56,000 nucleotides of DNA, from assembly GCA_003528115.1 (NCBI GenBank), contig DOGZ01000010.1, positions 1 through 56,000 on the forward strand, read 5' to 3'. The notes beneath the pieces are model-generated. The model saw only the letters and a list, made by a program, of their open reading frames with translations, was not told the origin of the DNA and made no database searches. The stretch comes from Candidatus Omnitrophota bacterium. GTDB lineage: Bacteria; Omnitrophota; Gorgyraeia; Zapsychrales; Zapsychraceae. Numbering within the stretch: position 1 is the stretch's first letter; each line of letters opens with the position of its first letter. Shown in pieces: positions 9,560-52,335 of the stretch. Both the position numbers and the translations under genes were made by a program.

Positions 9560-10065
9560 TCGGTTGTTCACGTCCTCTCCTCCCATTTAGTCAAATTGAA
9601 CGGTCATCAATATCTTGTTAAAAAACAATAGAACAAATTCATCAATTTATCGATACCCTCTCCTAAAGCAAATACTATGCCAGTTACCGTAAAAGATTTT
9701 TATTAAAATAACCTCTTCAATTTGTTTAAATTCAAATGGTTATAGAAACCTCATAATTACCTAAATATTAACAGACACTACCTGTCTTAGGCGACGTTTA
9801 AAAGAATGAACATGTCTGTCCAGGACATACCAGGACAATAATATAACCACATTAATAACATCATGTTACATACTTGTTCATGTTTGTCATCACATCAGCG
9901 TTTCAATAATACAATATTCCATTATTACAAAGTAACCGCATTAAACGGATCAGAAATCTTATTTTAGGAAATAATTTTGACAATTTTCAGGTCAATATCC
10001 AAAATCATCCCGTCTGCTTATAAAATATTTGTTGACTCTGAATCGTTATGGTATACTTCTTGCGT

Positions 10066-11448
10066 ATGAAAATTAAAATTACCGCCTCTCAGATCCAAAA
10101 GCAAGTTCTGGCACCCTCCATGCAGCAGTCCATTGAGATCCTTCTGCTTCCTTTGATTGAGTTAAACACAGCCATTGAACTGGAACTGCAAGAAAATCCC
10201 CTGCTTGAAATCGTTGAGGACAGATCCATGACTTCCCAAAACCCCATCGAAGACCTTGTTAATCAAAATCTTAAACGCCTGAAAGATTCCGCTATAGATA
10301 ACAGTCAACCCGCTTATTTTTCCCAGGAGGAAGAAGACTCTGAAGAAAAGGAAATTACGCGCAGCGCGCCCCTTGAAGAATATCTTTTGCAACAACTGCG
10401 TATTGAAATCACAGACCTTCTGGACCTAAAGATTGGAGAATTCATCATCGGGAATCTGGATGAGGATGGTTTTTTCAGGATGAGTTGCGAGGAAACGGCC
10501 TTAATGCTCGGGCTGAAAAGCGCGGAAATTGTTGAACGGATCCTTCATACCATTCAAAACTTTGAGCCATTAGGCGTGGCGGCCAGAGATCTCAAAGAAT
10601 GTCTCACTGTTCAGGCCCATTTCAAATTTAACGACACCACCCGGGATCTCATTTGCAAAGTCATCAACGACCATCTTGAAGAATTGGGCCGCAAGAAATA
10701 CACCGAGATCGCGCGAAAATTAAAATTACCGTTAACTACCGTCAAGAAAATCACGCAAGAGATTGCCAGTCTGGAGCCAAGACCGGCCCGAAAATACAGG
10801 CCAACCGACACGAATATCTATGTCCGGGCCGACGTCACGATAACAAAGAATTCAGAGGGGGAGTACGAGGTCCGCATCAATAATGATTCTATTCCCCATT
10901 TACGCATCAATGCCTTTTATCAAAACATGCTGAAACAGCCCAATCGAACTCCGGAAGAAATAGAATTTATTCGGGAAAAAGTTAAGAACGGCATTCTTTT
11001 TATCAAGAGCATTGAACAACGGCATCAAACTATCCGAGACATCACCCACTATCTTGTGGCATATCAAAAAGATTTCCTGGAGAATGGCCCCCTCCAACTC
11101 AAACCCATGATCCTGAAAGACGTGGCGGATTCGATCGGAAGAAATGAGTCCACGGTCTGCCGGGCGATCAATAATAAATATGTGGAAACGCCTCAAGGAT
11201 TGTTTCCCATGAAATTCTTTTTTTCCCAAGCCTTGTCAGAGAACACGCAAGACGGTAAGTCCATCTCTAGCCGCAGCATTAAAGAGGAAATCAAGACGCT
11301 GATTGAAGAAGAAAATAAAGTCAATCCCTTATCCGACCAGGACATCCAAAACTATTTTAAAGAAAAAGGAATGCCCGTCGCCCGCCGGACCATCAGCAAG
11401 TACCGCCAAGCCATGCGGATCCTGCCTTCGCACTTGAGAAAAACATAA
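10066..11448 (+). CDS. rpoN: RNA polymerase sigma-54 factor
   Basis: N-terminal Gln/Leu-rich region I, core-binding region, C-terminal RpoN box (ARRTISKYRQAM); second in-frame ATG (10066) fits the canonical N-terminus better than 10048. Confidence 0.9.
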   Translation: MKIKITASQIQKQVLAPSMQQSIEILLLPLIELNTAIELELQENPLLEIVEDRSMTSQNPIEDLVNQNLKRLKDSAIDNSQPAYFSQEEEDSEEKEITRSAPLEEYLLQQLRIEITDLLDLKIGEFIIGNLDEDGFFRMSCEETALMLGLKSAEIVERILHTIQNFEPLGVAARDLKECLTVQAHFKFNDTTRDLICKVINDHLEELGRKKYTEIARKLKLPLTTVKKITQEIASLEPRPARKYRPTDTNIYVRADVTITKNSEGEYEVRINNDSIPHLRINAFYQNMLKQPNRTPEEIEFIREKVKNGILFIKSIEQRHQTIRDITHYLVAYQKDFLENGPLQLKPMILKDVADSIGRNESTVCRAINNKYVETPQGLFPMKFFFSQALSENTQDGKSISSRSIKEEIKTLIEEENKVNPLSDQDIQNYFKEKGMPVARRTISKYRQAMRILPSHLRKT

Positions 11449-13268: not shown

Positions 13269-13367
13269 GCTACTGCGCCGTCATATTAATTGTTAATAGA
13301 TATTCTCAGAAAAGGCGCAGTGCTGTACTGTGTTCCCCTATTAACAATTAAAATGACACAGTACTAC
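13269..13367 (+). repeat. Structured intergenic repeat element, copy A
   Basis: Box1 ACTGCGCC pairs with Box2 GGCGCAGT; hairpin GTACTGTGT...ACACAGTAC with conserved TTAACAATTAA loop. Confidence 0.7.
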
Positions 13368-24328: not shown

Positions 24329-24438
24329 AAGAAAACAACTCCTGCACCGTTATATTATTTTCTAAACAATTTTTTTTACAAAATCCGAGAGAAGCACTTT
24401 GTTCCACAATTCAGAAATTTAGATTACAAAGCACTCCT

Positions 24439-29538: not shown

Positions 29539-29730
29539 ACTACTGCACTGTCAAATAAATTTTTTAGCTAACTTCAAGAAAAAGTGCAGTGTTGTACTGT
29601 GTTCCATGATATAAAAATTTAGCTGACGCAGTACTACGGCGCCGTCAAATTAACTGTGAAAGATATTTCTCAAAAAAGGCGCAGTGTTGTACCGTGCCCA
29701 ACTATTAAGTTCAGAAACAACGGTGCACCA
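29539..29730 (+). repeat. Structured intergenic repeat element, tandem dimer (copies B and C)
   Basis: Unit 1 Box1 ACTGCACT / Box2 AGTGCAGT plus hairpin GTACTGTGT...ACGCAGTAC; unit 2 begins CTACGGCGCCGTCAAATTAACT directly after unit 1. Confidence 0.7.
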
Positions 29731-30897
29731 TTATGACTTAACGGTGCTGAGCTGGGCCGCCTTCTTTTCAATAGAAGCCAAGAGGGCATCAAAGGCATCC
29801 TCAAAGGCCACGACCCCGTCTCTGAGCAAATCCTCACAGACATGACGGACATCGATGCCCAAATCCTTCAAGTCCTGGATGACCGCATGCGCCTCTCGAA
29901 CATCGTACGTGAAGGCATCTTTCACATGACCATGATCAAGAAAGGCGTTCAATGTCTTCTCGGGAATCGTATTGACGGTTGGTTGGGCGATTAACTCCGT
30001 TACATATTTGATATCACTATAGGCTGGATTTTTGGTGCTTGTGGATCCCCAGAGGACGCGCTGGACATTGGCCTTTTTGGCTTCCAGGGATTTAAAGGCG
30101 TTACCGGCAAAAAGCTCTTTAAATTTCTCGAAAATGATCCTCGAATTGGCTACAGCCGCCCTCCCCTTAAGAGACTGCACATTGGACTTCTTCGCCGAAT
30201 CGGTCATATCCGCTAATATCTCTTCAAGCTGTTCATCGACGGCGGTATCCATTCGGCTGATAAAGACACTGGCGACGGATCGCACGTGATTTAAATTGGA
30301 GTTTTCTCCGGCGAGACGTTTGAGGCCCCGCAGGTAAGACTGCGCCGTCTCGACATATTGTTCCAGAGAGAAAATTAATGTCGCGTTGACATTAATCCCG
30401 CGCGCGGTTAATTCTTCAACGACTTGAAGACCGGCCTTGGTCGCCGGGACTTTGATCATGAGGTTGGGACGGTTCACTTTCTTAAAAAGCCGAATCCCCT
30501 CATTGACCTGTGGCTCTACCTGGTTCGCTAATTTCGGATTAATCTCCAGACTCACGTACCCGTCGAGCCCATCGGTCTTTTCATAAACAGGGGTAAAGAT
30601 ATCCGCGGCGTCGCGGATGTCCGCCACGGTCAATTCATCATAAATCTCAAATGTGGAACGTCCGCCTTTCTTGAGCTGGAGGATCCTCGCGTCATAATCC
30701 GGGCTGGAACTGATCACCTGATTGAATATCGACGGATTCGAGGTCAACCCCCTTAATCCCTTCGCCACGAGATCTTTCAACTTTCCATTTTCCAGCATCG
30801 CGCGGTTGATATAATCCAGCCAGGCGCTTTGACCAAACTCGGCTAATTCTTGAATGGTTGTATGCGACATCCCTCTCCACCCTTCTCCTGAATTCAA
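29731..30897 (-). CDS. tal: Transaldolase
   Basis: 388 aa; GLRGLTSNPSIF signature. Confidence 0.85.
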   Translation of the reverse strand: MNSGEGWRGMSHTTIQELAEFGQSAWLDYINRAMLENGKLKDLVAKGLRGLTSNPSIFNQVISSSPDYDARILQLKKGGRSTFEIYDELTVADIRDAADIFTPVYEKTDGLDGYVSLEINPKLANQVEPQVNEGIRLFKKVNRPNLMIKVPATKAGLQVVEELTARGINVNATLIFSLEQYVETAQSYLRGLKRLAGENSNLNHVRSVASVFISRMDTAVDEQLEEILADMTDSAKKSNVQSLKGRAAVANSRIIFEKFKELFAGNAFKSLEAKKANVQRVLWGSTSTKNPAYSDIKYVTELIAQPTVNTIPEKTLNAFLDHGHVKDAFTYDVREAHAVIQDLKDLGIDVRHVCEDLLRDGVVAFEDAFDALLASIEKKAAQLSTVKS

Positions 30898-42721: not shown

Positions 42722-42836
42722 ACGAAAATACCTTAGAATAAAGCCCTCTCCCTTCTCTATAATACTGGTCGGAAATAGGACATTCTCATCAAAGCGGTTT
42801 TTTATAGAAGAGTTTTTGCCTGAGCGTCAAGCAGAA

Positions 42837-42909
42837 TGGGCCATGCAGGACTTGAACCTGCCACCCCCTGATTAAGAGTCAGATGCTCTACCAGATGAGC
42901 TAATGGCCC
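42837..42909 (-). tRNA. tRNA-Lys (anticodon CTT)
   Basis: Reverse complement GGGCCATTAGCTCATCTGGTAGAGCATCTGACTCTTAATCAGGGGGTGGCAGGTTCAAGTCCTGCATGGCCCA folds as a cloverleaf with anticodon loop CTCTTAA; no encoded CCA. Confidence 0.85.
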
Positions 42910-43113
42910 AACATATCAAATTATTAATTGCTGGTGATTATAGGCAGGTCAGGATGTTTTTTCTTTAGAGAACACACCCCAGCACATAACTTAGGCTGTT
43001 TTCAAAAATTCGCTGGTGTATTATATCCAAGATTATTCGAATGTAAACCGATTTCTTTCCATGCTCGCCATGCCTGGCCGTGCTGGCCCGTTGCCATCCA
43101 AGCAAATTTTTAT

Positions 43114-45533: not shown

Positions 45534-48500
45534 TCAATATCTGAAAGTCATGGACAGAACAAAGCCGGAGGAAGAGCCGTCAAACGGAATTTTATACTGC
45601 AGGAGTAATTCAAGATTCGTCTGCTTGCCCTCTTCCTTATCGGCATTGAACGTATGCGTAAATAGGATCCCCGGTCCTCCCTCGGAGTAGGACACACTGG
45701 AGGGATCCGGATTTTCCCATCGTCCGTTGACAATTAATTGAGGTGTAATAACCAAAAAATTTTTATAATTAACGCTTACCCCCTGCCGGACCTCCGCTGA
45801 ATAAGCCCATGAGGGATTCTCCAGAAAATAACCCGCGTCCATGTAGAACGAACTATAATTCCAGCACTTCTTGCCGCGTTTCAATTCCATCCCGTTATCC
45901 CATGAATACGCCTGCCTGAAAAGCCAGTTATCCTGAGCCTGATCTCCGATTTTTATAAGCCTTTCCGCGCCCATAAAAAAATTATACAGCCTGAATGGCT
46001 TATAACGAACCCCCACGCCTCCCTGATAGGAGTCTTCTTCAATGGCCAATGAGTTCGGCGGGGTACTCCATAAGATTCTTGAGGTAATTTGAAAAATCCG
46101 TTCATCCCGAAAACCGATGACCGGCGGTTGATAGGTCATATCGATGCCGCCTTGCGATAAGATGCTTCCCCCCGTGCCTACCCCTGACGGAGCGTTGGTT
46201 TTGTTATGAGTGTTCGGGCGATACATTTGGTAAAGAGTAAAATTAAAACGGTTTTCCAATTTATGGATCTCTTTGCGCAGATGCTCCACTTCCTCATCAG
46301 ATTCCGGATTCTTCGGATCCGCGTCATTATGTCCCTCAAGACGGTGATTAATCGCACGATTAAACCATGATATAGCTTTATCATTTGCCGCGATTTTCAT
46401 GTTCAGGTATCCCAGTTCTTTGTAAAGGTCATGGGCGCGCGGATCCTGGGCCACGATCTTCTCAAAAACAGAGATGGCTTCATCATACTTGCGGATATTC
46501 ACATAAACGTAACCTAAATGTTTGGCATAAGAAACATTTTGTGGATCTTCCGAGAGGGCCGTTTCAAAACTAATGATGGCATCGTTCCATAATCCTAATT
46601 TTTGATAAAACAAACCTGATTCAAAATGATGTTCGGGTAATGTCCGCAAAGAGTTGGCTTTAGTTTTCAAAATCTCCGCGTCTTTAAATTTATGCTGTCC
46701 CTCATAGATCTCCGCCAACGTGTTTAACCACCGGACTTCCAAATCCACGGGTAATTCTTCTTCGGTTATATTTTCAAGGATGCGCTGGGCATGATCGGCG
46801 TCCCCGGCCAGTTGATACATTTTTCCTAAGGATAATGCAACATGGGGGTCTCGCTTTAAATCCAGACACTGCTGAAGAACTTGAGCGGCAAGCTTGTAAT
46901 TTCCTTCCTGGGCATGCACATAGGCCAATTCCTGATAAGCCTCGACTTCTTCCGGCGCTCTCGAAAGAATATTTTCAAAAGTCCGGCGTGCTTGAGCGAT
47001 ATTCCCCAAATACCTTTGAACTTTCCCCAAACTCAAAGCGACGCGGGCGTCGTATTCTTTATTTAAATAATTTGTCCATGTTTTCTCAGCGAGAATGTAA
47101 TTATTTCTTTGAGAATCAATGTTTCCGAGCTCGAAGTCAATATTCAATTGCTCGGATTCATCCAACATATAAGATTTGCCATGAGCGGCTTTTAAATAGT
47201 AGGTCGCGACATCGGGTTTATTCAGCTTTGTGTAACAGCGGCTTAAATAAAGTAAAAACGCTGGATCCGGATGAAGATCATTCGCCAAACGGAACTCTTC
47301 AGCCGCCTCTTGCCAACGTCCCAACTTATAAAGAGACATCCCAAGACCCCGGCGCGCTTCCCAATCATCTTCTCTTTCTTTAAGCACATTTTGAAAACTT
47401 TGGACGGCCCGAGCATCGTCTCCCAGTTGACTGTAAAGATTCGCTTGCACTTTAAGAACTTCTTTCCTCTTCGATGAAATCAAACCGGTTTTTTTTAACA
47501 ATTGTTCATTGGTCTTAACCGCTCCTTTTAAGTCCCCCTGTTTAATCCGTGTAAAGGCCAATTGTTGCAAAACCTCAGGGGTTTCCTCGATGGATACGCT
47601 TTTCTCGAAATGTTTGATAGCCTCAGAATATGACTTCGATCTCAAAAAAACATCCCCCAACTGGGCGTAGATTTCTGGATTCAACGGTTTGTCACTCTGG
47701 TTTTGTTCAAAAATATTCCTGGCCGCTGTCAAATGCTTCAAGGCCTTTTCATTATTTTGTATTCTGGAATAAAGCAGGCCTAACCTCAGATGCAGATCGT
47801 AAGAAGGACCCTTCTCCAGCCCTTCTTCCGTTACTTTAATGGCCTCAGGTAAATTCCCCATGTCCTCGAGAATCTGGCTGTAGGCCAGCAATGCTTTTAT
47901 ATCCCCGGTCATTGTAGCGGCCGCCTTAAAATCCTCCGCTGAAAGCTTGTACTCTTTCAACTGCTGATAGATATATCCCCGGGTCATTAAAATCAGTGCG
48001 ACATCTTCTTTTTCAATAAGGGAAGCAAGTATATGGGTGTATTCCGTCACAGCCTCTGTTAATCGCCCGGAAGAATACAAAATATTGGCAAGGCGTTTTT
48101 GGTTATCAACAGTTTTGTTGATTGAGAAAAGATGTTGCATCCACTGGAGGCTTTGACCGTATTTTTCCTGTTGATAGGCTAGTTGGGTCAAATTGTCTAA
48201 AATTTCAGGATTATCAGGATCCTGATTGAGCGCGGACTCAAACATAGCCTGCGCTTTTTCCCATTGAGCCTCTTTTTTGTAAAATTCCCCCAGGCCTAAA
48301 AAAACATTTCTTTGTTCTCCGGGGTCCTGGGTGAGCTCCAATGCCTTATGATAATTATGCTCGGTCTCGTCATGATGTCCTAATTTTTCTTCCACCATGC
48401 CTAAACGGTAATAAAGGTTGAATCCCTCCTGGATTGTTTTTATTTCCTGCAAGGCGTTTAATGCCTCCTGATAGGACTGCTCTTTGATGGCCAGATCCGC

Positions 48501-49037
48501 CACCATATTTAAGGCAAACACGCGATCGTCCCGGCTGATATCCTTAAGACCCGCGGCCCCGCGAAAACTCTTGATAGCCTCCATCGATTGATCAAGATTC
48601 TGATGAGCCAATCCTTTATAGAGAAAGGCGGTTGATGATTCAGGCTGAATCTTTAAGATATCTTCCGCCTCCTGGATAACGCGCACATATTCTTTAAGTT
48701 GATATAAAAGCACGACATAAGTCGCGCGTACCGCCTGATCCCGAGGAGAAATATGAATATATTTTTCCAGTTCTTCTTTTGCTTCTTGAAGGCGATTATC
48801 CTCCATCAAACGGTAAGCCTTATCAAGATGGGGATATGTCCTGAATAAACGGATTTCTCGCTTAAGCCAATTCGTTGGAGAAGGAGTGTTCGGTTGAGAG
48901 GTCATGGGGGCCTCTGGAGTTGGCCTAGCCTCATCTGCCGGAACCGGCAGACTTAAAGTCATCAATACCAGGACCAAAGAAAAACATCTAAGGCCGACGC
49001 ATATTAAGGCAAGTCGATTCTTAACGTTAATCTTCAT
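45534..49037 (-). CDS. Outer-membrane TPR-repeat / C-terminal beta-barrel polysaccharide secretion protein (NfrA/PgaA/BcsC-like)
   Basis: 1167 aa; signal peptide, over 20 TPR units, C-terminal 300 aa alternating beta-strand pattern ending in aromatic ...SMTFRY; 11-nt overlap with the upstream synthase gene. Confidence 0.7.
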   Translation of the reverse strand: MKINVKNRLALICVGLRCFSLVLVLMTLSLPVPADEARPTPEAPMTSQPNTPSPTNWLKREIRLFRTYPHLDKAYRLMEDNRLQEAKEELEKYIHISPRDQAVRATYVVLLYQLKEYVRVIQEAEDILKIQPESSTAFLYKGLAHQNLDQSMEAIKSFRGAAGLKDISRDDRVFALNMVADLAIKEQSYQEALNALQEIKTIQEGFNLYYRLGMVEEKLGHHDETEHNYHKALELTQDPGEQRNVFLGLGEFYKKEAQWEKAQAMFESALNQDPDNPEILDNLTQLAYQQEKYGQSLQWMQHLFSINKTVDNQKRLANILYSSGRLTEAVTEYTHILASLIEKEDVALILMTRGYIYQQLKEYKLSAEDFKAAATMTGDIKALLAYSQILEDMGNLPEAIKVTEEGLEKGPSYDLHLRLGLLYSRIQNNEKALKHLTAARNIFEQNQSDKPLNPEIYAQLGDVFLRSKSYSEAIKHFEKSVSIEETPEVLQQLAFTRIKQGDLKGAVKTNEQLLKKTGLISSKRKEVLKVQANLYSQLGDDARAVQSFQNVLKEREDDWEARRGLGMSLYKLGRWQEAAEEFRLANDLHPDPAFLLYLSRCYTKLNKPDVATYYLKAAHGKSYMLDESEQLNIDFELGNIDSQRNNYILAEKTWTNYLNKEYDARVALSLGKVQRYLGNIAQARRTFENILSRAPEEVEAYQELAYVHAQEGNYKLAAQVLQQCLDLKRDPHVALSLGKMYQLAGDADHAQRILENITEEELPVDLEVRWLNTLAEIYEGQHKFKDAEILKTKANSLRTLPEHHFESGLFYQKLGLWNDAIISFETALSEDPQNVSYAKHLGYVYVNIRKYDEAISVFEKIVAQDPRAHDLYKELGYLNMKIAANDKAISWFNRAINHRLEGHNDADPKNPESDEEVEHLRKEIHKLENRFNFTLYQMYRPNTHNKTNAPSGVGTGGSILSQGGIDMTYQPPVIGFRDERIFQITSRILWSTPPNSLAIEEDSYQGGVGVRYKPFRLYNFFMGAERLIKIGDQAQDNWLFRQAYSWDNGMELKRGKKCWNYSSFYMDAGYFLENPSWAYSAEVRQGVSVNYKNFLVITPQLIVNGRWENPDPSSVSYSEGGPGILFTHTFNADKEEGKQTNLELLLQYKIPFDGSSSGFVLSMTFRY

Positions 49038-50688
49038 ATTTTTGCTTTTCTAATGCAAACATTAAATCTTTTTCCTTAATATATCCCATATCCATGAGGA
49101 TGTTGCCGAGGAATTGATGCTGTTCACTTTTTTTCCGGCAAACTTCTTGATGCAGGAGCGCTTCTTCGAGATATTGAAGTGTTATCAATTTGCTGCCTAA
49201 AAGAAGGTCCCCCAACCGGCACCGACAGGACCCCAGTTCTTCTTCGGAAGGATAGTGGTGAGATGTCTTGTCCCACGCGATCGCTTTCCCTGTCGCTAAA
49301 TGGCGGACATAAATCCGTACCGCACGAAAAGTCGCCACACAATTGATCAGGTTTCCCCATATCATCCGCGGGAATGAGAGCAAGGCCTGTCGGTACCCGT
49401 AGAGCCTCTGGACGCAATAAGCCCGTTGCACAATCCGTAATCCAAAAAACGCCGCGTTAATTAAAGTCACATTCCACAACCAAGTCCCTCGTTCCAGAAG
49501 CGGCGGATAGCGGTAGGTGTCCGGATTAATCCAGAGCATAAACCAGACCGATAACACACTTAATACGACCACATAGCCCAATATATTTATAAAATTCGTA
49601 ACGAGCGCCTTGCGGTCACGGAAAAGCATATATTTTGTCGCGAGGTCCCCTTTCCAGCCTAATTGGGCCCAGCCTTGAAAAGCAATGCCGATGATCCAGC
49701 GTGATTTTTGACGGACTGCGGCAGTAAAACTTTTGGGGAAATATTCACGGACGCAAACATATTCTTTAACTCTATTTTGAATGATCTTCTTGCTCCAAAA
49801 AGATTTCCGGGTTTGGGTCCTGGTAATCGCGAATTTTACAAAAATCTGCTTTAATCCATGCTTCTTTAATTGAAAGCCGAAATCATAATCTTCTGTTAAC
49901 GAGTCAAGACTGAACAATTGGCCGTTCTTCTCCTTCGATAATAAATCGAACGATCGGCGGCTGAACGCGCAGCCCACCCCTGCGGCCGGTATACTTTTAT
50001 TGATATCTTCCCGGACAATGATGTCCTTGTAATGCCCTTGCGCGAACTCATCGATATAATGTCCGGCGGTAAACTGGGACCACTTCACGGGCAGGGAAAA
50101 GACCGGTAGTTGCACCATGTCGTTACGCGGAATTAAATAGTTAAAAAGTTTATAGCAAAGGGGATGGATCACGTCCTCACAGTCCTGCATGACAAAAATG
50201 GAAAATTTGAGTTCTCTCTTTTTCTCAAAAAGTTTGATCCCCAGAAAAATGTTATTCAAACAATCCGCTTTATTGGTCGGCCCGTCCTGAGGACAAACAC
50301 ACAGTTGGATATTGGGATGCGCCTCTCTGACTTTTTCAACCTCGATTTGCGTCTTGAGGTCATTGGGATAAACACCCACAAAAATATGAAAATTTTTATA
50401 ATTTAAATTCTTCAGGGTGTTCATCAACATGGGACGAATGACGGAGGACTCGTCCCAGGCAGGGATCATGACGGCGATCGTTTGTTCAGGGCATTCGAGA
50501 AGCTGACGTTCCTGTAATGGGGCATACCGGCTATAAATAAATATTTTCCGGTAAAAGCTTCTTCCCATAAACCACAAATCTATAAAAAGGTCATCCGCCC
50601 CGCTTATGAGGAATATAACACTGGTCAGAATCAGGAGGAATTTCATCAGAACTAAAACGTACGGCAAAATATCCAACAATTCCATCAT
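49027..50688 (-). CDS. NfrB-like GT2 exopolysaccharide synthase with C-terminal MshEN (c-di-GMP-binding) domain
   Basis: 553 aa; N-terminal TM, GT2 catalytic core, 3 more TMs, then tandem MshEN motifs RLGDLLLGSKLITLQYLEEALLHQ and LGNILMDMGYIKEKDLMFALEKQ. Confidence 0.8.
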   Translation of the reverse strand: MMELLDILPYVLVLMKFLLILTSVIFLISGADDLFIDLWFMGRSFYRKIFIYSRYAPLQERQLLECPEQTIAVMIPAWDESSVIRPMLMNTLKNLNYKNFHIFVGVYPNDLKTQIEVEKVREAHPNIQLCVCPQDGPTNKADCLNNIFLGIKLFEKKRELKFSIFVMQDCEDVIHPLCYKLFNYLIPRNDMVQLPVFSLPVKWSQFTAGHYIDEFAQGHYKDIIVREDINKSIPAAGVGCAFSRRSFDLLSKEKNGQLFSLDSLTEDYDFGFQLKKHGLKQIFVKFAITRTQTRKSFWSKKIIQNRVKEYVCVREYFPKSFTAAVRQKSRWIIGIAFQGWAQLGWKGDLATKYMLFRDRKALVTNFINILGYVVVLSVLSVWFMLWINPDTYRYPPLLERGTWLWNVTLINAAFFGLRIVQRAYCVQRLYGYRQALLSFPRMIWGNLINCVATFRAVRIYVRHLATGKAIAWDKTSHHYPSEEELGSCRCRLGDLLLGSKLITLQYLEEALLHQEVCRKKSEQHQFLGNILMDMGYIKEKDLMFALEKQKYED

Positions 50689-50713
50689 TGCCCTCGGTTA
50701 TCAAAATTGATTA

Positions 50714-50812
50714 TTAGTGCACTGTCAAATTAATTTTTAAGTGCTGATTTTAAGAAAAAGTGCGCTGGTATACTGTGTTCCACTTTTAACAATTAAGATA
50801 ACACAGTATTAG
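50714..50812 (+). repeat. Structured intergenic repeat element, copy D
   Basis: Box1 AGTGCACT / Box2 AGTGCGCT; hairpin ATACTGTGTT...AACACAGTAT with the same TTAACAATTAAG loop as copy A. Confidence 0.7.
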
Positions 50813-50835
50813 GAACAAAGAATTTATCAACCGTA

Positions 50836-52065
50836 TTACAAAGAGTAGGCATGAGGAACCGGAGAAAAAGGGATATTTCGTGTTGATTGGGATGATGCAT
50901 GTTCTTGGCAGGTCATATTTAACAAATATTGGACGATGCGTTCTCCCGCGTGGCCGTCACCAAAAGGATTTTCCCCACGAATCATTGATGCATAAGCGAC
51001 AGGGTCATTTAATAAATGGGCGGCTTCCTGCACAATCAATTCCGGCCTGGCCCCGACCACTTTGGCCATTCCAGCTTGCATAGCCTCGGGCCGTTCGGTG
51101 AGTTTGCGTAAAACCAGCAAAGGTTTTCTCAAAGTGGGGGCTTCTTCCTGGACCCCTCCGGAATCCGTCAGAATAAGATAAGAACGTTTCATCAAATGAA
51201 TAAATGTATGGTAATCAAGAGGTCCTGTAAGAAATATTCTTTCCGTATTACCCAGAACTTCATGAGCTGTCTTTTGGACCACGGGGTTCATGTGCACCGG
51301 ATAAACCACAATGAGATCCGAAAATCGTTCAACCAAAAGTTTTATAGCCAGACAGATGTTCTGAAGATCGTTCCCCCAGGACTCCCGGCGATGCGAAGTG
51401 ACCAAGAGGATCCGGCGATTCGTCATCGGTATATGTTCGAGCGGCGTTTTTTCCAAACGGAAAGGCCTATCGAGCTGATAGTGGAGCGCGTCAACAACCG
51501 TATTACCCGTGATAAGGATATTGTCGGCACAAACGCCCTCTTGCAATAGTTGGTCACGGGATAAAGCGGTTGGAGCGAAATGCATTTTTGCTAAAACAGT
51601 CGTTAAACGGCGGTTGATTTCTTCAGGGAAGGGATTATGGATATCATAACTGCGCAACCCCGCTTCGATATGGCCGACTGGAATACGATTATAGAACGCG
51701 GCCATGGCGCTGCCAAAGACCGTGGTCGTATCCCCCTGGACTAAAAGCATATCAGGGCTGAGTTCACGCAACGTATCATTCATCAGGGACATGACGCGGC
51801 ACGTGAGATCACTCAACGTCTGCTGAGGCTGCATGACATTTAAATCGATGTCGGGAGTAATTTCAAAAAGTTCAAGGACCTGATCAAGCATTTGTCGATG
51901 CTGGGCGGTGGCAATCACAATGGTCTCTAACTCCTGAGACCTCCGTCGCAATGCCCGAACAACGGGAGCCATTTTGATAGCTTCCGGCCGTGTCCCGATA
52001 GTCAAGGCAATTCTAGGGCGATTAAAATCTTTCTTATATTGAGACTTATCAATCTTTAGGATCAT
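50836..52065 (-). CDS. wecB: UDP-N-acetylglucosamine 2-epimerase (non-hydrolysing)
   Basis: RIALTIGTRPEAIKMAPV N-terminus and full epimerase_2 length; start set at MILKID (52065, GGAGA Shine-Dalgarno 10 nt upstream); the longer frame to 52185 overlaps a degenerate repeat element. Confidence 0.9.
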   Translation of the reverse strand: MILKIDKSQYKKDFNRPRIALTIGTRPEAIKMAPVVRALRRRSQELETIVIATAQHRQMLDQVLELFEITPDIDLNVMQPQQTLSDLTCRVMSLMNDTLRELSPDMLLVQGDTTTVFGSAMAAFYNRIPVGHIEAGLRSYDIHNPFPEEINRRLTTVLAKMHFAPTALSRDQLLQEGVCADNILITGNTVVDALHYQLDRPFRLEKTPLEHIPMTNRRILLVTSHRRESWGNDLQNICLAIKLLVERFSDLIVVYPVHMNPVVQKTAHEVLGNTERIFLTGPLDYHTFIHLMKRSYLILTDSGGVQEEAPTLRKPLLVLRKLTERPEAMQAGMAKVVGARPELIVQEAAHLLNDPVAYASMIRGENPFGDGHAGERIVQYLLNMTCQEHASSQSTRNIPFSPVPHAYSL

Positions 52066-52077
52066 TGTTGAATTTCT

Positions 52078-52160
52078 CCATACTGCGCACATCTTCAAAT
52101 TGAAATATTTGAAATTTAAGTAACGCGGTACTGCAGGACAAATTTTTAAGAACGACCGTT
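52078..52160 (+). repeat. Degenerate copy F of the structured intergenic repeat element
   Basis: TACTGCGCAC...TCAAATTGAAAT...AATTTTTAAGAA shares Box1 and spacer motifs with copies A-D. Confidence 0.4.
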
Positions 52161-52335
52161 TATGAAGCGGAGGATAGATTAACAAAAGAGTCCAATATAA
52201 TCAATGGGACAATGTAGGACATATTGGTACAGGCAAATGGCGCGTCCCATGAACTCCCACCTCTTCCTGACTTAGAGAAATCATTTTCCGACGGAAATGA
52301 CTTTGTCCGTGGATCTACTATCAACAAAAAAGGCA

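What the first reader, a model, noticed from the sequence alone, without database searches (positions are those of the whole stretch)
13269..13367. Family of about 100-bp structured intergenic elements with compensatory base changes; defining copy A
Read from the sequence. Copies at 13269-13367, 29539-29633, 29634-29730, 50714-50812 and a degenerate one at 52078-52160 share the same architecture. Box1 (CTACTGCRCYGTCAAATWAATT) is followed by an AU-rich spacer ending AGAAAAAG, then Box2, then a 9-10-bp hairpin with a roughly 25-nt loop, ending ACACAGTACTA. Box1 and Box2 are complementary, and the pairing is maintained by double compensatory changes: copy A has ACTGCGCC with GGCGCAGT, and copy B has ACTGCACT with AGTGCAGT. 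The hairpin loop sequence TTAACAATTAA is itself conserved between copies A and D. The two imperfect positions are T-G in copy D Box1/Box2 and T-G in the copy B hairpin. These form G-U wobbles only if the plus strand is the RNA, that is, antisense to all flanking genes. All copies lie between co-directional minus-strand genes and all are in the same orientation. This is the signature of a structured RNA family (small RNA, REP-like element or riboregulator) rather than random intergenic similarity. Three of the five copies sit immediately next to glycosyltransferase or wecB genes.
Basis: seen in the sequence. Interest (0 to 1): 0.7.

Follow-up and report, generated by a model that had tools for sequence, protein, structure and literature searches.

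The report
Small mobile repeat in Omnitrophota operons
The 100-base "structured RNA" copies are real, but they are best read as a previously unannotated miniature transposable element of an Omnitrophota bacterium. Each copy is bracketed by a duplicated 4-base target, and the element has landed in the short gaps between genes.

Summary
Copies A-D are real. Copy E is not statistically supported. I found a sixth, degenerate copy (F, 24339-24437).

The genome is Omnitrophica WOR_2 bacterium GWA2_45_18. Two more copies lie on another contig of that genome. Five near-identical copies (95-96%) lie at unrelated loci in a second Omnitrophota genome. Three other Omnitrophota showed none.

Every copy has a 90-91-nt body flanked by a 4-nt direct repeat. 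The repeat differs between copies but matches at both ends of a copy: CTAC, TTAG, CTCC, CTAT or CTAG. This is the mark of a target-site duplication. The ends are about 28-nt imperfect inverted repeats. Neighbouring genes are functionally unrelated, so the glycosyltransferase link is an accident of this window.

The Box1:Box2 and hairpin pairings with double compensatory changes are confirmed. So is a third, long-range pairing between the two "loops". The element is two inverted copies of one hairpin module.

No Rfam family, sigma-70 promoter or terminator matches.

Best reading: a MITE (Correia/RUP class), transcribed passively within operons.

Three things remain unexplained:
- Orientation is strongly biased (11/12 antisense to flanking genes).
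- Wobble pairs fall on one strand only.
- One duplicated base may covary with an internal base.

These keep a single-strand (IS200/REP-like) mechanism alive as a rival.

The parts
13270..13367 (+). Copy A. 4-nt direct repeat CTAC (13270-13273), 90-nt body (13274-13363), direct repeat CTAC (13364-13367). The minus-strand TAG inside the right repeat is the stop codon of the DUF3568 gene.
   Evidence: (110 bits)
13271..13322 (+). Copy A hairpin 1. Box1 13271-13279 pairs with Box2 13314-13322. The outer three pairs use bases of the direct repeat. The loop holds the conserved GTCAWATTAATTGTTAATAG (13280-13299) and AGAAAAG.
13325..13364 (+). Copy A hairpin 2. GTACTGTGTT (13325-13334) pairs with GACACAGTAC (13355-13364). 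The loop segment 13338-13357 is the reverse complement of 13280-13299, giving the long-range, inverted-repeat pairing.
29540..29637 (+). Copy B. CTAC (29540-29543), 90-nt body (29544-29633), CTAC (29634-29637). The right repeat is shared with copy C.
   Evidence: (100 bits)
29634..29731 (+). Copy C, in tandem with B and diverged. CTAC (29634-29637), 90-nt body (29638-29727), decayed right repeat CCAT (29728-29731). It abuts the transaldolase stop codon (29731-29733).
   Evidence: (50 bits)
50714..50812 (+). Copy D. TTAG (50714-50717), 91-nt body (50718-50808), TTAG (50809-50812). It lies between wecB and a GT2 (pgaC-like) gene.
   Evidence: (113 bits)
24339..24437 (+). Copy F, new and degenerate; hairpin 1 is lost. 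CTCC (24339-24342), 91-nt body, CTCC (24434-24437). On the gene strand the repeat reads GGAG, 10 nt upstream of the ATG of the PsbP-like gene. Without the insert the gap between the two genes would be about 15 nt.
   Evidence: (34.5 bits, E 5e-5)
52080..52134 (+). Possibly a left end joined to a right end (ATAC|TGCGCA...GCGGTA|CTGC, about 47-nt body). Not statistically supported.

Best explanation
It is a family of non-autonomous miniature transposable elements (MITEs) of Omnitrophota.

Shown:
- Each copy has a 90-91-bp body that begins TGCRCY and ends ACAGTA (GTGCA in copy C, AAGCA in copy F).
- The ends are about 28-bp imperfect inverted repeats. They contain the conserved GTCAAATTAATTGTTAA motif.
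- Each copy is bracketed by a duplicated 4-bp target, CTAN on the element strand and NTAG on the gene strand.
- Copies sit in very short gaps between co-directional genes. The target is often the TAG stop codon of the upstream gene, which the duplication preserves. In copy F the repeat reads GGAG just upstream of the downstream gene's start codon, and both copies of it are present.

Inferred:
- A transposase encoded elsewhere, not identified here, recognises the two ends, makes a 4-bp staggered cut and inserts the element.
- Because copies lie within apparent gene strings, they are probably transcribed passively as part of the mRNAs. There the RNA can fold into two hairpins or one long hairpin. 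It may alter mRNA stability or processing, as described for Correia, ERIC and REP elements.
- The compensatory changes reflect divergence of element subfamilies under a requirement that the ends and internal repeats remain complementary.
- The one-sided orientation reflects selection against the other orientation inside operons.
For: 1. Dispersal. A pattern scan of 185,579 species genomes gave 17 stretches, about the chance number. The only cluster was five hits in one MAG, Candidatus Omnitrophota VAR_69_metabat_93. All five match the model at 82-124 bits; the 12 other loci do not. The metagenome hit L024, and a further copy H, lie on another contig of the window's own genome, GCA_001804395.1 / GWA2_45_18.
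2. Neighbouring genes are unrelated in function.
3. Copy identity is 95-96% within VAR_69, 58-85% within the window genome and 63-81% between genomes. None was found in about 43, 16 and 22 kb of three other Omnitrophota around the PEPCK gene.
4. Direct repeats are concordant at both ends and differ between copies: A CTAC/CTAC, B CTAC/CTAC, D TTAG/TTAG, F CTCC/CTCC, G CTAT/CTAT, H CTAT/CTAT, V008 and V016 CTAG/CTAG. V014 and V018 have one mismatch each. Body length is 90-91 nt in 10 of 11 copies.
5. Inverted-repeat ends are present in every copy. The long-range pairing is 74.9% paired against 33-43% when slid, with 8 pairs changed on both sides.
6. Removing a copy and one repeat restores tight gene junctions with the same stop codon (sequence; coordinates).
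7. The copies are A+T-rich, 29-43% G+C against 45% for the window. This matches the published description of bacterial MITEs: under 200 bp, inverted-repeat ends, TA at the termini, A+T-rich, target duplications, and transcripts forming long stem-loops (PMC2229807).
8. IS5 duplicates a 4-bp YTAR target (PMC5009759).
Against: - No transposase with matching ends was found. The only transposase-like gene seen (IS30-type, L047 12447-13547) has unrelated ends.
- No empty site could be obtained, so the duplication is inferred from concordance, not from a filled/empty comparison.
- A double-strand cut-and-paste enzyme does not obviously need the two local hairpins, yet these keep pairing through double changes.
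- Orientation is 11/12 antisense to flanking genes, and 12/12 have the same strand on the C-rich side. That is unusual for such elements.
- The target is asymmetric: position 1 is C in 10/11 copies, position 4 is free.
- The fourth duplicated base tends to pair with an internal base.
Confidence: 0.6

Rival explanations
1. It is a single-strand DNA element of the REP/REPIN or IS200/IS605-derived (PATE) kind. A Y1/HUH transposase would recognise the two same-strand hairpins and insert the element next to a CTAN tetranucleotide. That tetranucleotide would be read by base pairing with an internal guide. The identical 4-mers at the two ends would then be the target (left) and the element's own cleavage site (right), both matched to one guide.
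For: - Two hairpins lie on one strand, one at each end, with compensatory changes.
- The element is two inverted copies of one hairpin module, as in REP doublets (PMC3116915, PMC3333891).
- Wobble pairs in intact copies fall on one strand only.
- All 12 copies have the same relation to GC skew. This is the kind of bias reported for elements that use the lagging-strand template (PMC3201880, PMC3333891).
- On the minus strand an NTAG (GTAG in A and B) sits 5' of the hairpin foot, as GTAG does in E. coli REPs (PMC3333891).
- The fourth base of the 4-mer is complementary to the base 3' of Box2 in A, B, D, F and all four VAR_69 copies.
- In IS608 the target is read by an internal guide sequence (PMC3201880).
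Against: - This family makes no target duplication. Its left-flank target and right-end cleavage site are different sequences in IS608: TTAC against TCAA (PMC3201880). Here the two 4-mers agree at variable positions in 8 of 11 copies.
- Loops of 20-35 nt and about 28-nt inverted-repeat ends are not REP- or IS200-like.
- The guide-like covariation is weak (my enumeration, p about 0.06-0.13), and copy G breaks it.
- If the plus strand is the folding strand, as the wobbles suggest, it is the C-rich strand. That is the opposite of the lagging-strand-template rule.
- No Y1 transposase was seen in the sequence held.
Confidence: 0.2
2. It is a host-selected structured RNA element. Either it is a cis-acting mRNA feature in operon spacers (a stabiliser or processing site), or it is a plus-strand antisense small RNA. 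In both cases base pairing would be maintained by selection in the host after an ancient spread.
For: - Intact copies in the window genome are only 74-85% alike, yet have 0-1 broken pairs in 19.
- The plus strand folds better than shuffles: z -4.2, -2.7, -3.0 for A, B and D.
- Wobbles favour the plus strand.
- Placement and orientation in operon spacers are consistent.
- There are precedents for orientation-dependent effects of such repeats on mRNA (PMC3049150, PMC2649163).
Against: - No promoter or terminator for a separate transcript, and no Rfam match.
- Three of seven copies in this genome (C, F, H) have lost a helix or been rearranged.
- Neighbouring genes share no function.
- 95-96% identity including the loops at unrelated loci in VAR_69 indicates recent copying, not convergent selection.
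- The family is absent from three other Omnitrophota at syntenic loci.
- The direct repeats show that insertion created each copy.
Confidence: 0.12
3. It is a double-strand DNA binding-site array for a regulator or nucleoid protein. The four ACTG[CT]G[CT]-type boxes would be half-sites, or the element would carry an outward promoter.
For: - Four related boxes occur in alternating orientation.
- The A+T-rich TTAACAATTAA motif is conserved.
- TTGACA lies at the gene-proximal end of B, D and three of the four aligned VAR_69 copies (V016 has TTGACC).
Against: - Box sequences vary between copies while staying complementary. That points to structure, not a fixed recognition sequence.
- No -10 element lies at the right spacing in any flank (my reading; scans).
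- There is no sigma-54 GG-N10-GC spacing.
- The neighbouring genes are unrelated.
Confidence: 0.03

Closest known systems
Correia/NEMIS elements of Neisseria and RUP of Streptococcus pneumoniae (bacterial MITEs)
   Same: - About 100-155 bp, non-coding and A+T-rich.
- Inverted-repeat ends with TA at the termini.
- Short target duplication.
- Many dispersed copies in intergenic regions and within operons.
- Transcripts fold into long stem-loops (PMC2229807, PMC2649163).
- The size (about 99 bp with repeats) is close to RUP (107 bp) and the short Correia form (about 107 bp).
   Different: - There is no sequence similarity to these elements.
- The duplication is 4 bp (CTAN), not the insertion at a TA dinucleotide reported for RUP and the TA termini listed for both families (PMC2229807).
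- Besides the inverted-repeat ends, each end forms its own hairpin with an internal repeat.
- Orientation is strongly biased.
- The host phylum is Omnitrophota.
- No IHF site or RNase III cleavage has been shown.
IS5-type insertion (4-bp duplication of YTAR)
   Same: A 4-bp duplication centred on TA. CTAG and TTAG, found in 5 of 11 copies, fit YTAR (PMC5009759).
   Different: - Position 4 is not restricted to purine (CTAC, CTAT, CTCC).
- The ends (TGCRCY.../...ACAGTA) do not, as far as I recall, resemble IS5 ends. This was not tested.
- No IS5-family transposase was found in the sequence held.
REPINs / BIMEs (REP doublets mobilised by RAYT Y1 transposases)
   Same: - About 100-nt units made of two inverted copies of a palindromic module.
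- Compensatory changes across the hairpin.
- Intergenic location.
- A conserved tetranucleotide (GTAG in E. coli; NTAG here on the minus strand) at the hairpin foot (PMC3116915, PMC3333891).
   Different: - REPs are G+C-rich, 30-40 nt, with short loops. Here the stems are 6-10 bp with 20-35-nt A+T-rich loops.
- REPINs are not flanked by copy-specific direct repeats.
- No RAYT gene was seen.
IS200/IS605 ends and their miniature derivatives
   Same: - Same-strand subterminal hairpins at both ends.
- A tetranucleotide next to the element.
- Possible pairing of that tetranucleotide with an internal base.
- Orientation linked to strand asymmetry (PMC3201880).
   Different: - That family has no inverted-repeat ends and no duplication.
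- Its left target and right cleavage site differ.
- Its guide lies 5' of each hairpin foot, for which there is no room at the left end here.

Membership tests
Bacterial MITE (Correia/RUP class, as defined in PMC2229807 and PMC11602168) | Short (50-800 bp), non-coding, in several dispersed copies | tested here: met
   The body is 90-91 bp. There are 7 copies in about 100 kb of one genome and 5 in a second genome, all at unrelated loci.
Bacterial MITE (Correia/RUP class, as defined in PMC2229807 and PMC11602168) | Terminal inverted repeats of at least 10-15 bp | tested here: met
   The left end aligns to the reverse complement of the right end over about 28-30 nt in every copy. 74.9% of cells are paired against 33-43% when slid. 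The outermost 6 nt are imperfect.
Bacterial MITE (Correia/RUP class, as defined in PMC2229807 and PMC11602168) | Target-site duplication of 2-10 bp flanking each copy | tested here: met
   The 4-nt direct repeats are concordant in 8 of 11 copies, with five different sequences. This is inferred from concordance, not from an empty site.
Bacterial MITE (Correia/RUP class, as defined in PMC2229807 and PMC11602168) | Filled and empty sites in related genomes | tested here: inconclusive
   The nearest relative of the flanking GT4 protein is 38% identical. A PEPCK relative at 80% lacks the element but has a different upstream gene. All strains of the window species carry copy A.
Bacterial MITE (Correia/RUP class, as defined in PMC2229807 and PMC11602168) | A full-length insertion sequence with the same ends in the same or related genomes | not testable with these tools
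There is no transposase in the window. The IS30-type gene in L047 has unrelated ends.
REP / BIME / REPIN | A 30-40-nt G+C-rich imperfect palindrome with a conserved tetranucleotide 5' of its foot | tested here: not met
   Stems are 6-10 bp with 20-35-nt A+T-rich loops, and G+C is 29-43%. A tetranucleotide NTAG does sit 5' of the minus-strand hairpin.
REP / BIME / REPIN | Two modules in inverted orientation forming one long hairpin, with compensatory changes | tested here: met
   The reverse strand of each copy matches the model at 18-30 bits. The long-range pairing shows double changes.
REP / BIME / REPIN | A single-copy RAYT (Y1 transposase) gene flanked by the repeats | not testable with these tools
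None was seen in the loci held.
IS200/IS605-derived miniature elements | No inverted-repeat ends and no target duplication; left-flank target and right-end cleavage site recognised separately | tested here: not met
   Inverted-repeat ends are present. The left and right 4-mers are identical and vary together. In IS608 they are TTAC and TCAA (PMC3201880).
IS200/IS605-derived miniature elements | Orientation tied to the direction of replication | tested here: inconclusive
   In 12/12 copies the Box1-first strand is on the C-rich strand. Gene direction is confounded with this (11/12). The one exception, L018, has weak skew.
Curated structured RNA families (Rfam 15) | A match to a covariance model at or near the gathering score | tested here: not met
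   In the window only a tRNA reaches threshold. The best hits to copies A and D at E<=10 are eukaryotic miRNA/snoRNA models at 9-18 bits.
Independent small RNA gene | Its own promoter and terminator | tested here: not met
   No sigma-70-type promoter was found, and no intrinsic terminator lies wholly within a copy. The single terminator-like site (29725-29747, minus strand) spans the end of copy C and the transaldolase stop and is at the shuffle expectation. Other promoter types are not covered by the scan.

The most novel reading that the evidence does not exclude
The element may choose its own target by base pairing. The 4-nt sequence found at both ends may not be a passive duplication. It could be read by an internal guide, the bases between the two hairpins, on single-stranded DNA. 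That would make this a roughly 91-nt, hairpin-ended, orientation-specific element that combines REP/IS200-like strand-specific chemistry with a duplication-like footprint. The combination would explain together the local hairpins with compensatory changes, the one-strand wobbles, the 12/12 strand bias, the asymmetric CTAN target and the covariation of its fourth base with an internal base.
Probability: 0.12. Interest if true: 0.75.

Novelty: new member of a known kind. Interest (0 to 1): 0.4.

Why it matters
Omnitrophota is a large, mostly uncultured phylum, and I found no description of its small mobile repeats. A literature search returned nothing and Rfam has no match.

Recognising this family has practical value:
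- It prevents mis-annotation of the copies as small RNAs or riboswitches.
- It may explain some contig breaks: one VAR_69 copy lies about 120 nt from a contig end.
- It marks insertion events that preserve stop codons, and in copy F a GGAG just upstream of the downstream start.

The combination of duplication-like 4-mers, hairpins at each end and near-absolute orientation bias is unusual for a MITE. A whole-genome census could show whether a strand-specific or guide-directed insertion mechanism is at work. That would be of wider interest for transposon biology.

Tried and rejected
- Sigma-54 promoter. An rpoN gene is in the window, and TGGAAC...GCA occurs on the minus strand. The GG-to-GC spacing is 11 or more, not 10, and is not conserved (my reading).
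- Outward -35 box. TTGACA lies at the gene-proximal end, but no -10 sits at 16-18 nt in any flank (and my reading).
- Intrinsic terminator on either strand. No terminator-like site lies wholly within a copy; the one site found (minus strand, 29725-29747) spans the end of copy C and the transaldolase stop and is at chance level.
- LexA-box or IHF-site resemblance. The consensus is not met on reading the sequence.
- Integron attC. There are no RYYYAAC/GTTRRRY cores, the neighbours are housekeeping genes, and the spacing is irregular.
- TA (2-bp) or CTA (3-bp) duplication. Superseded by the 4-nt concordance.
- Glycosyltransferase association. Rejected.
- Orthologous-site comparison through GT4 homologues. 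No close relatives exist.
- PEPCK loci of four other Omnitrophota lineages. One proved to be the window genome itself and yielded copy H. The other three have no copies.
- Walking 18 kb and 9 kb further along two contigs. No new copies.
- Viral contigs. One chance hit.
- Plasmid and phage collections. Nothing relevant.
- IS30-type gene in L047 as the parent element. Its ends do not match.

Full report
**What is there**

Reading the five claimed sites and aligning them shows four clear copies, A to D, all on the + strand. The fifth site, E, is barely alignable.
- A direct-repeat search recovered A-D and pointed to a further weak copy near 24339.
- The conserved central 18-mer occurs three times against 0.02 expected.
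- Rfam at gathering thresholds finds only a tRNA in the window.
- Searches of copies A and D at E<=10 give only meaningless miRNA/snoRNA hits of 9-18 bits.

**Source and neighbours**

An exact protein look-up places the window on a 131-kb groundwater contig. It belongs to assembly GCA_001804395.1. The proteins are named Omnitrophica WOR_2 bacterium GWA2_45_18.

The copies sit in spacers between minus-strand genes:
- A lies between a DUF3568 gene and a GT4 gene.
- B and C lie between a transaldolase gene and an AMP-binding enzyme gene.
- D lies between wecB and a GT2 gene.
- F lies between a fadB-like gene and a PsbP-like gene.

**Copies elsewhere**

One pattern scan of 185,579 species genomes returned 17 stretches, about the number expected by chance. 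The only cluster was five hits in a single MAG, Candidatus Omnitrophota VAR_69_metabat_93.
- Those five are full or nearly full copies.
- A covariance model built from eight copies scores them 82-124 bits and rejects the 12 other loci.
- The metagenome scan gave one real hit, L024. Exact protein look-ups show that L024 lies on another contig of the window's own genome.
- The model found one more copy, H, on that contig. H is a rearranged 186-nt-body form.
- With filters off, the model scores the window copies D 113, A 110, B 100, C 50 and F 34.5 bits (E 5e-5). It does not recover E.
- Local alignment with shuffles agrees: F 0/300, E 7/300 at best.
- No copies were found in 18 kb and 9 kb of further sequence from the same genome. 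None was found in about 43, 16 and 22 kb around the PEPCK genes of three other Omnitrophota.
- This gives about 7 copies per 100 kb scanned. The sample is small and partly selected for containing copies.

**Mobile-element signatures**

- Neighbouring genes are unrelated: PEPCK, TatC, an alginate-export porin, a phosphoribosyltransferase, DUF2064, LpoB, a DCC1-like protein, an AAA_14 ATPase and a tRNA-Arg. The glycosyltransferase link is therefore an accident of this window, which is rich in polysaccharide genes.
- Copies are 95-96% identical within VAR_69, 58-85% within the window genome and 63-81% between the two genomes.
- Most telling, every copy is flanked by a 4-nt direct repeat that differs between copies and agrees at both ends of a copy:

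| Copy | Left / right repeat |
|---|---|
| A | CTAC / CTAC |
| B | CTAC / CTAC (right one shared with C) |
| D | TTAG / TTAG |
| F | CTCC / CTCC |
| G | CTAT / CTAT |
| H | CTAT / CTAT |
| V008, V016 | CTAG / CTAG |
| V014 | CTGG / CTAG |
| V018 | CTAG / CTAT |
| C | CTAC / CCAT |

- The body between the repeats is 90-91 nt in ten of eleven copies.
- Concordance at variable positions is what a target-site duplication produces: T at position 1 in D, C at position 3 in F, and C, G or T at position 4.
- Removing a copy plus one repeat restores tight junctions. In A, G, H and V008 the minus-strand TAG of the right repeat is the stop codon of the upstream gene. In F the repeat reads GGAG, 10 nt before the downstream ATG, and the gap without the insert is about 15 nt.
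- IS5 duplicates a 4-bp YTAR target (PMC5009759). The general description of bacterial MITEs fits well: under 200 bp, inverted-repeat ends, TA at the termini, A+T-rich, target duplication, and stem-loop transcripts (PMC2229807).

**Structure**

On a MAFFT alignment of ten copies, 89.9% of cells are paired. Five pairs changed on both sides, and no shuffle of 500 reaches the covariation score. Slid controls give 11-63% paired.
- RNAalifold predicts the same two hairpins without guidance.
- The two "loops" are also complementary to each other. The left about 30 nt aligns with the reverse complement of the right about 30 nt in every copy, with copy-specific shared variants. This long-range pairing is 74.9% paired, with eight pairs changed on both sides, against 33-43% when slid.
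- The element is therefore two inverted copies of one hairpin module, with a roughly 14-nt extra segment (...AGAAAAAG) in the left module. This explains why each copy also matches the model on the reverse strand.
- The outer three pairs of helix 1 and the outermost pair of helix 2 use bases of the flanking repeat.

**Strand**

- As RNA, the + strand folds somewhat better than the - strand. Single-sequence z-scores are -4.2, -2.7, -1.5 and -3.0 against -2.8, -1.2, -1.1 and -1.4. Consensus energies are -24.5 against -21.8 kcal/mol.
- In intact copies the non-Watson-Crick cells are G-U on the + strand: V014, D, B, C in its correct register, and a shared closing pair. There are no A-C cells in these copies. 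Degenerate F has four A-C cells.
- This is suggestive, not decisive.
- No sigma-70-type promoter was found, and no terminator-like site lies wholly within a copy; the one site found spans the end of copy C and is at chance level.

**Orientation**

- Eleven of twelve copies are antisense to their flanking genes. The exception is L018.
- In all twelve the Box1-first strand is the C-rich strand.
- The two variables are confounded, and the one exception has weak skew.
- Orientation-dependent effects of such repeats on mRNA are known for ERIC and BOX elements (PMC3049150). Selection inside operons is therefore a sufficient, if unproven, explanation.

**Interpretation**

The best-supported reading is a MITE family that inserts at CTAN with a 4-bp duplication. 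It would be mobilised in trans by an unidentified transposase and carried passively in operon transcripts.

The main rival is a single-strand, Y1-transposase-dependent element of REPIN or IS200-derived type. It accounts better for the same-strand hairpins, the wobble asymmetry, the strand bias and a possible pairing between the fourth repeat base and an internal base. It does not predict concordant variable 4-mers or inverted-repeat ends (PMC3201880, PMC3333891). The guide-like covariation is statistically weak: by my enumeration, p is about 0.06-0.13.

A host-selected RNA function cannot be excluded for individual copies, but nothing requires it. Three of the seven copies in this genome are decaying.

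**Limits**

- No empty site was obtained.
- No cognate transposase was found.
- Only twelve copies were available.
- There are no expression data.

Noticed in passing
L047 9890-9910 and 12152-12172 (same genome, contig MHFX01000007.1; also L024 3718-3738 and 1456-1476): A short palindrome, GGACGTTGC-N3-GCAACGTCC, occurs twice. The two copies bracket a roughly 2.2-kb AAA_14/DUF4143 plus DUF6036/AbiEii-like module, and one abuts element copy G. It is absent from the window. It could be a second, REP-like repeat family, or the ends of an inserted cassette.
   Followed up: partly
L047 12447-13547: An HTH_38 (IS30-type) transposase-like gene lies near a contig end. It has about 19-bp imperfect inverted repeats, GTAAyyCAnAGTGCGACAA, on either side. 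Its ends do not resemble the 91-nt element.
   Followed up: partly
window 50836-52185 (wecB ORF) and 52065-52079: The wecB ORF is probably over-extended at its 5' end. The Epimerase_2 domain starts at residue 82. An ATG at 52065 is preceded by GGAG (52076-52079). The doubtful copy E (52080-52134) would then lie just upstream of that ribosome-binding site.
   Followed up: partly
L047 846-1041 (minus strand): Copy H has a 186-nt body. Its left end (CTAT|TGCGTCGTCAAATCATTGACG) is separated from the rest by about 95 extra nt that contain their own inverted repeat (GACGTCC...GGACGTC). The flanking CTAT repeats are intact.
   Followed up: partly
L020 7188-7291: This VAR_69 copy lacks its last 16 nt. 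The loss looks like a deletion between two TAG repeats. The copy lies about 100 nt upstream of a tRNA-Arg gene and about 120 nt from the contig end.
   Followed up: partly
L018 5798-5896: This is the only copy in the same direction as its flanking genes. It sits inside the 3' end of a 567-aa ORF. It appears to replace about the last eight codons with five element-encoded codons and a TAA.
   Followed up: partly
window 10048-11448: rpoN (sigma-54) is the only long plus-strand gene within a roughly 52-kb run of minus-strand genes. GC skew is negative on the + strand for nearly the whole window.
   Followed up: no
window 45534-52185: This is a PNAG-like (pga-like) gene set: a TPR/NfrA_C outer-membrane protein, a GT2 synthase and wecB, with copy D inserted between the last two. 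A tRNA-Lys(ctt) gene lies at 42836-42910 (-).
   Followed up: no
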